From a virus: a stretch of 10,449 bases of DNA. The translations under genes and the position numbers were made by a program. The notes below the pieces were generated by a model. That model did not search any database. It saw only the letters and a list, made by a program, of their open reading frames with translations, and was not told the origin of the DNA. The stretch lies in the UHGV virus genome UHGV-1344453, one strand, 5' to 3'. Each line of letters opens with the position of its first letter. Position 1 is the first letter of the stretch. This document shows positions 3,054 to 4,224 of this stretch, one piece after another.

Positions 3054-4224
3054 ATGCCGAGAATTATCGAATTGCGCCAGCAGAAAACCGCCATCAAAAA
3101 TCAGATGCGCGACATGCTGGAGAACGCGGAAAAAGAAAACCGCAGCCTTAACGACGCCGAGGGCGCAAAATTTGACGAATTACGCGCTAAAGCTGAATCC
3201 CTCGATAAAGACATTTCCCGCCTTGAAGCCGTTGCCGACGAAGAGCGCAGCAAGCCAGGTAAAGCCAGCCAGACCACTGACCCCGCAGAACTTCGCAACT
3301 ACATCGTAACGGGTGACGTTCGCTCATTATCCACCACCACCAACGGCGGCAAGGACGGTGGTTATACCGTTATCCCTGAGCTTGATCGCGAGGTTATGCG
3401 GTTACTGAGTGATGAAAGCGTCATGCGAATGATTGCGACGGTGAAAACGGCGAAATCAAACGAATACCAGAAACTGGTTTCCACAGGTGGCGCAACGGTG
3501 GGGCGTGGCACTGAGGGCAACAAGCGAACCGAAACAGAAACCCCGAAAGTTGAGCGCGTAAGCATCAAACTTAACCCGATCTATGCCTACCCGAAAACCA
3601 CGCAGGAAATCCTGGATTTTTCAGAAGTGGATGTGCTGGGCTGGTTATCGTCTGAAATCGCCGACACGTTCGCCACGACCGAAGAAGATGATTTTGTAAA
3701 TGGTGACGGTACTGGCAAGCCGAAGGGTTTCCTGAATTACACCCGTGATACCAACAACGNNNNNNNNNNNNNCCTTTGGCACCATTGAAAAAATGGTTAC
3801 AACAACCGACGCCATTACAGCGGACGAACTGATCGACATCCTCTACAAGCTGAAAGCGAAATACCGTAAGAACGCCGTGTGGGTGATGAACTCGAACACT
3901 GCGGCAGCATTGCAGAAGCTGAAAAACCAGAGCGGTGATTACGTATGGCGTGACAGCCTCAAAGAGGGCGCACCTGACACATTGCTGGGCCGTCCTGTTT
4001 ATTACCTGGAAAGTATGCCGGACATCGGCAAAGGCAAAACGCCGCTGGCTGTCGGTGACTTTAAGCGCGGTTATTTCATCGTTGACCATGAAACGGGGAT
4101 CCGTACCCGACCGGACAACATTACAGAGCCGGGCTTCTACAAGGTACACACGGATAAATACATCGGCGGCGGGGTTGTTGACTCCCGCGCGATAAAAGTC
4201 CTCGAGATGAAAAACGGCGATTAA
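3054..4224 (+). CDS. Major capsid protein, HK97 fold, with N-terminal coiled-coil delta/scaffold-like domain; interrupted by the N-run 3760-3772, which causes an apparent frame change
   Basis: ATG at 3054 with AGGA 9 nt upstream. The N-terminal ~90 aa are charged and coiled-coil-like. The following sequence resembles HK97-family capsid proteins. The C-terminal part continues after the gap in a different frame to the stop at 4222-4224. Confidence 0.8.
3760..3772. other. Run of 13 N inside the capsid gene
   Basis: Directly visible. The frames on either side differ by 1, so the true missing length is not 13 or an indel lies nearby. Confidence 0.95.

What the first reader, a model, noticed from the sequence alone, without database searches (positions are those of the whole stretch)
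3760..3772. N-run inside the capsid gene produces an apparent frameshift
The capsid reading frame before the 13-N run and the frame after it differ by one position, although both flanks read as the same HK97-type protein. The N-run length therefore does not reflect the real sequence, or an indel lies nearby. The 44-N run at 1519-1562 similarly hides the 5' boundary of the first early gene and possibly more iterons. Annotation across both gaps is provisional.
Basis: seen in the sequence. Interest (0 to 1): 0.35.

Follow-up and report, generated by a model that had tools for sequence, protein, structure and literature searches.

The report
Scaffold gap splits satellite capsid gene
The apparent frameshift is an assembly artefact: a 13-N placeholder in a metagenome scaffold stands for 12 real bases, and the capsid gene of this phage-satellite island is intact in every gap-free copy.

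Summary
Positions 3760-3772 are 13 N. The capsid frame before them (codons start at positions = 0 mod 3) and after them (= 1 mod 3) differ by one.

The cause is trivial. The window is a whole metagenome scaffold (ENA ERZ28621398, QINJ12-1_SAMN00792043_METAG-scaffold_1829). Thirteen gap-free copies of the same island carry exactly 12 nt there, ACAAAGCCCGCG. Eleven of the 13 show no mismatch in the window bases they align to up to 10135; one has a single mismatch. Inserting those 12 nt gives one 389-aa HK97-fold major capsid protein, identical to RefSeq WP_021546405.1 and 70% identical to the solved capsid of the capsid-forming PICI EcCIEDL933 (PDB 9GYI). The hidden residues D236-R239 lie in that capsid's "connector loop".

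The 44-N run at 1519-1562 likewise stands for 43 nt. It hides one more GGTGAACAG iteron. It does not hide the start of the next gene: GTG 1599 lies 37 nt downstream and an in-frame TAA sits inside the hidden stretch.

There is no biological frameshift and no evidence for a pseudogene, so interest is low.

Seen in passing and more interesting: this 14.7-kb island is inserted inside the thiM TPP riboswitch aptamer, at the 14-nt att core AGAAATACCCGTAT.

The parts
3760..3772 (.). 13-N scaffold placeholder. The real sequence is 12 nt, ACAAAGCCCGCG: the last 2 nt of codon D236, codons K237, A238 and R239, and the first nt of codon A240.
   Evidence: Thirteen gap-free copies (L001, L002, L006-L010, L012, L016-L020) have 12 nt between identical 25-30-nt anchors.
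3054..4224 (+). Major capsid protein gene of the island (HK97 fold). It spans 1171 positions in the window because of the extra N. The real gene is 1170 nt and encodes 389 aa.
   Evidence: the reconstructed protein is identical to the L001 and L007 capsids. PF05065, 243 bits, profile 1-279 of 280. PDB 9GYI, E = 7e-173.
1519..1562 (.). 44-N scaffold placeholder. The real sequence is 43 nt, AAAAGGGAAAATAGCAAAAGGTGAACAGGTGAAGGGTTAAAAT, which is intergenic and part of the iteron/ori region.
   Evidence: ten copies identical in both flanks have this 43-mer. L004 also has 43 nt.
1324..1501 (.). Iteron cluster (putative replication origin) downstream of the primase gene: 8 exact copies of GGTGAACAG on both strands plus one 1-mismatch copy. 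A further exact copy lies under the 44 N.
   Evidence: 8 matches against 0.10 expected, and 0 of 200 shuffles reach 8; positions, including the hidden copy.
1599..1844 (+). 81-aa gene of unknown function. Its GTG start lies 37 nt downstream of the 44-N run, so the gap does not affect it.
   Evidence: called as 81 aa in relatives and in the source record; in-frame TAA in the resolved gap and GAGG 8 nt upstream of the GTG.
4260..9409 (+). Rest of the island's packaging module: prohead protease 4260-4835, portal 4837-6051, head completion 6048-6386, head-tail connector 6383-6679, HNH 6679-7119, TerS 7408-7764, TerL 7748-9409.
   Evidence: PF04586, PF04860, PF05521, PF05135, PF01844, PF05119, PF03354 and PF20441, all above the curated cut-offs.
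10023..10036 (+). attR core AGAAATACCCGTAT, the right end of the island, inside the thiM TPP riboswitch aptamer.
   Evidence: the core is duplicated at attL and attR, 14,679 bp apart in L016. K-12 has a single copy.

Best explanation
The 13 N are a gap placeholder written by the scaffolding step of a short-read metagenome assembly. Two contigs were joined across a stretch that the assembly graph did not cover, and the number of Ns is an estimate. Here the estimate is one base too long (13 for 12), so the downstream half of the capsid gene appears shifted by +1. The real gene is an uninterrupted 1170-nt ORF. It encodes the HK97-fold major capsid protein of a capsid-forming phage-inducible chromosomal island (cf-PICI), a satellite that builds its own small capsid and relies on helper-phage tails. 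The 44-N run is the same kind of placeholder (44 for 43) in the iteron/ori region. Shown directly: the Ns, the frame offset, the real sequence in identical copies, the restored ORF and its family. Inferred: that this sample's island carries the same 12 nt, and that the assembler was metaSPAdes.
For: (1) The window is a complete 10,449-nt record named '...METAG-scaffold_1829' from ENA assembly ERZ28621398, with the same two N-runs.
(2) Thirteen independent gap-free sequences have exactly ACAAAGCCCGCG between anchors identical to the window. They are two complete E. coli chromosomes, two NCBI draft genomes, four Logan assemblies and five ENA metagenome contigs.
(3) Ten of the loci aligned base by base show no non-N mismatch in the window bases they align to up to 10135, and L012 has one, at 2033. 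L001 has none between about 2250 and 7250.
(4) With the 12 nt inserted, the ORF is 389 aa and identical to the capsids of L001 (WP_021546405.1) and L007. It matches PF05065 end to end and PDB 9GYI over residues 1-388.
(5) More distant islands (L003 about 93% identical in DNA, L005 at the same att site) also have 12 nt at this place, ACAAAACCCGCG. The site is therefore not indel-prone.
(6) The second N-run behaves the same way, 44 N for 43 nt.
(7) The mOTUs-db workflow assembles public metagenomes with metaSPAdes into 'scaffolded contigs' (PMC11701688). Linking this record's name to that workflow is my inference.
Against: The reads of this sample were not available, so the 12 nt are inferred from identical copies, not read from this sample. 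Both N-runs are exactly one base longer than the real sequence. That is tighter and more systematic than expected from noisy insert-size estimates, and I cannot explain it. It may point to a deterministic off-by-one in how the gap length was computed or written. The stored public record (L011) also differs from the window at two capsid positions (3574, 4175), so the exact provenance of the window text is not fully clear.
Confidence: 0.95

Rival explanations
1. The N-run length is exact and this sample's island carries a real 1-nt insertion, or another frame-breaking change, in codons 236-240. The capsid gene would then be a pseudogene.
For: Only the face value of the record: 13 N and a +1 frame offset. 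Low-coverage, decaying satellite copies do exist in E. coli; pseudogene flags appear in neighbouring islands.
Against: An N-run carries no base information. Every gap-free copy has 12 nt and an intact ORF. The rest of the island is identical to those copies. The unrelated, non-coding 44-N run shows the same +1 excess, which points to a technical cause rather than a mutation.
Confidence: 0.02
2. The Ns are a mask laid over known bases by a later data-handling step (submission screening or database preparation). In that case no scaffolder gap is involved, and the bases were once known.
For: The description of the genome-contig collection says some stretches are masked as N. Both runs being exactly real length + 1 looks like a deterministic coordinate error, not an estimate.
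Against: A mask normally preserves length. The record is named a scaffold, and the copy fetched from the ENA store has the same Ns. Neither hidden sequence (a capsid loop, an iteron spacer) gives any reason for masking. Either way the frameshift is an artefact.
Confidence: 0.03
3. The breaks mark real within-sample heterogeneity. Two co-resident island variants would differ in the capsid connector loop and in the ori, which the assembler could not merge.
For: Island lineages do differ at one base inside each hidden stretch: G/A in ACAAA[G/A]CCCGCG, and A/T in the 43-mer of L004. E. coli genomes carry up to 5 related capsid genes.
Against: A single-base difference gives a bubble about k bases long, which assemblers collapse. 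It does not give a 12-nt hole. There is no sign of a second variant in the flanks. Simple lack of coverage in a low-abundance genome is sufficient; a sister contig, L012, has coverage 2.8 in its name.
Confidence: 0.03

Closest known systems
N-filled gaps in short-read scaffolds (for example metaSPAdes scaffolds.fasta)
   Same: A run of N joins two collinear contigs in a record named 'scaffold'. Its length is an estimate and it breaks the frames of genes that span it.
   Different: Both runs here are off by exactly +1, which is unusually close for an insert-size estimate. The assembler was not verified for this record.
Major capsid protein of the cf-PICI EcCIEDL933 (PDB 9GYI; bioRxiv 10.1101/2025.02.11.637232)
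   Same: It is 70% identical over 381 aligned residues, full length, E = 7e-173. The gene neighbourhood is the same (protease, portal, adaptor, connector, HNH, TerS, TerL). The hidden residues D236-K-A-R239 align with D234-K-E-R237 in the 227-248 'connector loop'. Deleting that loop abolished EcCIEDL933 transfer in that study.
   Different: This is a different island lineage and integration site (the thiM riboswitch). There are small indels elsewhere in the protein (+2 near residue 97, -2 near 250, +5 near 324). No experiment has been done on this island.
HK97-family capsid proteins (Pfam PF05065), e.g. the Rhodobacter capsulatus GTA capsid, PDB 6TB9/6TBA
   Same: End-to-end match to PF05065 (243 bits). 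E = 8e-52 to the RcGTA capsid over residues 98-384.
   Different: It is encoded by a tail-less satellite, not a phage or GTA. By homology with EcCIEDL933 it is expected to form a small T=4 shell, which was not tested here.

Membership tests
Scaffold gap (assembly artefact) | An uninterrupted run of N in a record produced by scaffolding | tested here: met
   13 N and 44 N. The source record is ENA ERZ28621398 '...METAG-scaffold_1829', and the whole contig equals the window.
Scaffold gap (assembly artefact) | Flanks are collinear and contiguous in gap-free assemblies of the same sequence | tested here: met
   one continuous alignment across each gap in 13 (gap 2) and 10 (gap 1) gap-free copies, with flanks 100% identical.
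Scaffold gap (assembly artefact) | The N count need not equal the real length | tested here: met
   13 N for 12 nt and 44 N for 43 nt.
Scaffold gap (assembly artefact) | Reads of the sample do not cover, or only thinly cover, the gap | not testable with these tools
Genuine frameshift / pseudogene or programmed frameshift in the capsid gene | Two overlapping frames in real sequence, conserved in relatives | tested here: not met
   the capsid is annotated or called as one 389-390-aa ORF in every gap-free relative; a single ORF after gap filling.
HK97-fold major capsid protein (Pfam PF05065) | Full-length match above the curated cut-off | tested here: met
   243.1 bits (cut-off 24.2), residues 102-384 against profile 1-279 of 280; the two fragments match the two halves.
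HK97-fold major capsid protein (Pfam PF05065) | Sequence homology to a solved HK97-fold capsid | tested here: met
   9GYI at E = 7e-173 and 6TB9/6TBA at E = 8e-52. No structure prediction was run.
Capsid-forming PICI (cf-PICI; SatelliteFinder definition, PMC10085698) | Core set: integrase, AlpA-type regulator, primase-replicase, capsid, prohead protease, portal, head-tail adaptor, head-tail connector, HNH, TerS, TerL | tested here: met
   Nine of these are in the window. The integrase (PF00589) and AlpA (PF05930) lie just upstream in full copies of the same island, L016-L020. SatelliteFinder itself was not run.
Capsid-forming PICI (cf-PICI; SatelliteFinder definition, PMC10085698) | No tail and no holin/lysis genes | tested here: met
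   the island is 14,679 bp between direct repeats, all called genes are listed, and none has a tail or holin Pfam hit. Several small ORFs have no hit at all.
Capsid-forming PICI (cf-PICI; SatelliteFinder definition, PMC10085698) | Induction by a helper phage and transfer in its own capsids with helper tails | not testable with these tools
   This is an experimental property, known for EcCIEDL933 but not for this island.

The most novel reading that the evidence does not exclude
The two N-runs are not mere coverage holes but mark sites where this gut sample holds a variant island. The variant could be a frame-breaking or length-changing change in the capsid 'connector loop' (the loop proposed to set the small T=4 capsid size) or a different iteron count in the ori. 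That would give a natural capsid-loop variant, or a decaying cf-PICI, in a human gut.
Probability: 0.03. Interest if true: 0.2.

Novelty: not a real feature. Interest (0 to 1): 0.05.

Why it matters
The biological significance is negligible: there is no frameshift. The practical point is that N-run lengths in scaffolds must not be used to infer reading frames. In the public record this gap has already produced two truncated 'proteins' (244 aa and 143 aa) in place of one 389-aa capsid. Fragments like these enter protein catalogues. The four hidden residues lie in the cf-PICI-specific connector loop, and deleting that loop abolished transfer of the related EcCIEDL933. Anyone comparing capsid loops across metagenomic cf-PICIs should fill or drop such gaps. 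The gap can be repaired with high confidence from identical copies: ACAAAGCCCGCG at 3760-3772, and AAAAGGGAAAATAGCAAAAGGTGAACAGGTGAAGGGTTAAAAT at 1519-1562.

Tried and rejected
(1) Programmed frameshift or pseudogene: rejected, because every gap-free copy has a single ORF.
(2) An indel near the gap: rejected, because the flanks are identical to the relatives.
(3) An ORF starting at ATG 1512 and running through the 44 N (listed): rejected, because the resolved sequence has in-frame stops.
(4) Identifying the assembler: a literature search found only that the mOTUs-db workflow uses metaSPAdes scaffolds. 'METAG-scaffold' and 'QINJ12-1' do not occur in the searchable text, so the link is an inference from the naming style.
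(5) Explaining why both runs are exactly real + 1: no test was available, so this stays unexplained.
(6) An Rfam gathering-threshold scan of the window found nothing. Only a relaxed scan showed the broken TPP riboswitch.
(7) A sigma-70 promoter scan of 9400-10130, looking for an island promoter that could drive thiMD, found none.
(8) A literature search for the thiM riboswitch as a satellite att site found nothing relevant.

Full report
**Observation**

The window contains exactly two N-runs, 1519-1562 (44 N) and 3760-3772 (13 N), and no other ambiguous letters. An ORF starts at ATG 3054 and uses codons at positions = 0 mod 3. It runs into the 13 N. Taken at face value, it ends at TGA 3786-3788.

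The ORF that ends at 4224 uses codons at positions = 1 mod 3. The N-terminal piece (3054-3758) matches positions 1-131 of Pfam PF05065 Phage_capsid. The C-terminal piece (3793-4221) matches positions 143-279.

**Where the window comes from**

An exact-protein look-up with the large terminase returned eight places. One of them, L011, is a 10,449-nt record with the same gene layout and the same N-runs: ENA assembly ERZ28621398, 'QINJ12-1_SAMN00792043_METAG-scaffold_1829'. The window is thus a whole scaffold from a short-read assembly of a human gut metagenome.

The naming style matches the mOTUs-db re-assemblies. Those use metaSPAdes and keep 'scaffolded contigs' (PMC11701688). The link between this record and that workflow is my inference from the name.

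In that record the capsid is called as two genes, 3054..3788 (244 aa) and 3793..4224 (143 aa).

**What is under the 13 N**

- A megablast search of 3000-4300 against 5,426 complete E. coli genomes gave two near-identical hits. In both, 1,301 query bases correspond to 1,300 subject bases.
- Anchoring on the 25-30 nt on either side of the gap, 13 independent gap-free sequences carry exactly 12 nt, ACAAAGCCCGCG.
- The 13 sequences are two complete chromosomes (L001 SB0258h1, L002 ZH063), two NCBI draft genomes (L007, L017), four Logan assemblies (L008, L018-L020) and five ENA metagenome contigs (L006, L009, L010, L012, L016).
- Six of them were compared base by base. L006-L010 have no non-N mismatch with the window over 1-1518 and 1563-10135. 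L012, which aligns from 1986, has one mismatch, at 2033.
- For L016-L020, 1-1518 is 100% identical and the mismatch totals over 1563-10449 are of the same size as in L006-L010, but the positions were not listed.
- L001 has no mismatch between about 2250 and 7250.
- Two more distant islands (L003 IAI39 and L005 CEA106S) also have 12 nt at this place, ACAAAACCCGCG. The site is therefore not prone to indels.
- With the 12 nt inserted, the reading is AAC AAC G|AC AAA GCC CGC G|CC TTT. The ORF is 1170 nt (389 aa) and identical to the capsids of L001 (RefSeq WP_021546405.1, 'phage major capsid protein') and L007.

The N-run is one base too long, and that alone produces the apparent frameshift.

**What the gene is**

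The repaired protein matches PF05065 end to end: 243 bits against a cut-off of 24.2.

Its best solved relative is PDB 9GYI, at E = 7e-173 and 70% identity over 381 aligned residues. The preprint 10.1101/2025.02.11.637232 identifies 9GYI as the T=4 capsid of the prototype capsid-forming PICI EcCIEDL933.

The hidden residues D236-K-A-R239 align with D234-K-E-R237 of 9GYI. That places them inside the 227-248 'connector loop'. The same study describes this loop as the main structural difference from HK97, and reports that deleting residues 232-247 abolished transfer.

**The surrounding island**

| Gene or feature | Pfam family | Window position |
|---|---|---|
| D5-type primase (C-terminal 435 aa) | PF03288, PF08706, PF19263 | 3-1310 |
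| Iteron cluster | - | 1324-1501 |
| 81-aa gene | no hit | 1599-1844 |
| SSB | PF00436 | 1841-2251 |
| PerC | PF06069 | 2262-2519 |
| 86-aa gene | no hit | 2510-2770 |
| Capsid | PF05065 | 3054-4224 |
| Prohead protease | PF04586 | 4260-4835 |
| Portal | PF04860 | 4837-6051 |
| Head completion | PF05521 | 6048-6386 |
| Connector | PF05135 | 6383-6679 |
| HNH | PF01844 | 6679-7119 |
| TerS | PF05119 | 7408-7764 |
| TerL | PF03354, PF20441 | 7748-9409 |

Full copies of the same island (L016-L020) add a tyrosine integrase and AlpA upstream. They show no tail or lysis genes within 14,679 bp bounded by direct repeats. This meets the gene-content definition of a cf-PICI used by SatelliteFinder (PMC10085698). 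SatelliteFinder itself was not run, and helper-dependent transfer cannot be tested here.

**The 44-N run**

Ten copies identical in both flanks have 43 nt there, AAAAGGGAAAATAGCAAAAGGTGAACAGGTGAAGGGTTAAAAT. L004 also has 43 nt. This run too is one base too long.

The hidden stretch holds one more exact copy of the 9-mer GGTGAACAG. The visible window has 8 exact copies against 0.10 expected by chance, all within 1324-1501.

The hidden stretch does not contain the start of the next gene. In the resolved sequence an in-frame TAA lies inside the hidden 43 nt, and no ATG/GTG/TTG follows it before GTG 1599. That GTG has a GAGG 8 nt upstream. It is also the start used in RefSeq relatives and in the source record's own calls, giving an 81-aa product. 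The ORF 1512..1844 that a mechanical scan lists through the Ns is an artefact.

**Explanation and rivals**

The best explanation (about 95%) is a scaffolding placeholder whose length is an estimate.

- A real frame-breaking mutation in this sample (about 2%) has no support beyond the N count. The non-coding 44-N run shows the same +1 excess, which argues against it.
- A post-assembly mask (about 3%) would normally keep the length. It would in any case still make the frameshift an artefact.
- Within-sample heterogeneity (about 3%) is possible but unnecessary.

One thing remains unexplained. Both runs are exactly one base longer than the real sequence. That is tighter and more systematic than a paired-end insert-size estimate should be, and it suggests a deterministic off-by-one somewhere in the gap-length computation.

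**Verdict**

The feature is an artefact and not biology. The gap can be filled with high confidence from identical copies.

**Seen in passing**

(a) *Insertion inside the thiM riboswitch.* The island's right end lies inside the thiM TPP riboswitch.
- The window is identical to K-12 for 95 nt upstream of the thiM ATG and diverges upstream of 10023.
- The 14-nt core AGAAATACCCGTAT (10023-10036) is duplicated at attL and attR.
- RF00059 scores only 36.5 bits against a gathering score of 54.3. Only the 3' half of the aptamer is present at attR. The 5' half and the native promoter region lie about 14.7 kb away, next to the integrase.
- No consensus sigma-70 promoter was found in the island's last 700 nt.
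- How thiMD is expressed and regulated in carriers is an open question. It is probably more interesting than the finding itself.

(b) *Window versus stored record.* The stored public record L011 differs from the window at 3574 (C instead of A; N to T) and at 4175 (G instead of T; V to G). All relatives agree with the window.

(c) *Identical island, variable flank.* The island shows no non-N mismatch (one in L012) across the six copies from different samples that were compared base by base. The adjacent 330 nt of thiM differ at 1-19 sites. This fits recent horizontal spread.

Noticed in passing
window 9949-10117 (att core 10023-10036); L016 3745 and 18424; L015/L005 (CEA106S): The island is integrated inside the thiM TPP riboswitch aptamer. 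The 14-nt core AGAAATACCCGTAT is duplicated at both ends, 14,679 bp apart. attR keeps only the 3' half of the aptamer plus the expression platform (RF00059 36.5 bits against gathering 54.3). The 5' half and the native promoter region stay at attL beside the integrase. No consensus sigma-70 promoter was found in the last 700 nt of the island, so how thiMD is transcribed and regulated in carriers is unclear. At least 12 of 5,426 complete E. coli genomes share this island end next to thiM.
   Followed up: partly
window 1519-1562 and 3760-3772: Both N-runs are exactly one base longer than the real sequence (44 for 43, 13 for 12). This looks like a systematic off-by-one and not a noisy gap-size estimate. 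The cause is unknown.
   Followed up: partly
window 3574 and 4175 versus L011: The stored public copy of the source scaffold (L011) differs from the window at two capsid positions: 3574 A->C (Asn->Thr) and 4175 T->G (Val->Gly). Each change extends a C- or G-run. All gap-free relatives that could be anchored at each site (nine at 3574, seven at 4175) agree with the window. The differences may be low-coverage sequencing errors in one version of the record, or there may be two versions of the record.
   Followed up: partly
window 1-10135 versus 10136-10449 (L006-L010, L012): In the six copies from unrelated samples and cohorts that were compared base by base, the island has no non-N mismatch with the window (one in L012, at 2033). 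The adjacent thiM 5' end differs at 1 to 19 sites in about 330 nt. This is consistent with recent horizontal spread of one island clone into different E. coli backgrounds. L016-L020 show similar mismatch totals, but their positions were not listed.
   Followed up: no
window 9485-9541 and 9615-9647: There are three direct copies of TTGCGGGTT(A/T), about 21-22 nt apart, and three inverted copies (AACCCGC) about 90-130 nt downstream. They lie just after terL and flank an AT-rich stretch and a (TA)7 run at 9653-9666. They could be protein-binding sites, for example for recombination or packaging. This was not tested.
   Followed up: no
window 9890-9962; 2823-2842; CEA106S attL region (L015): A segment of about 75 nt near attR (TTGTTCGTCGTTGTTCGT ... 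two tandem TGTGTGGTCAGT) recurs almost unchanged next to attL, upstream of the integrase gene. A related GTGGTTGTTCGTGGTTGTTC lies about 200 nt upstream of the capsid operon. These may be arm-type integrase sites or regulator sites.
   Followed up: no
L004 (NZ_AP027829.1) 8491-14210: A replication module about 97% identical to the window's (primase, iterons, 81-aa gene, SSB, PerC) is joined to a different, much smaller head module, a ClpP-like protease/capsid fusion without portal or terminase genes. This shows modular exchange between satellite types.
   Followed up: no
window 4837 versus 4891: The portal gene start is called inconsistently: ATG 4837 (404 aa) in RefSeq and one NCBI draft, but 4891 (386 aa) in most metagenome gene calls.
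   Followed up: no
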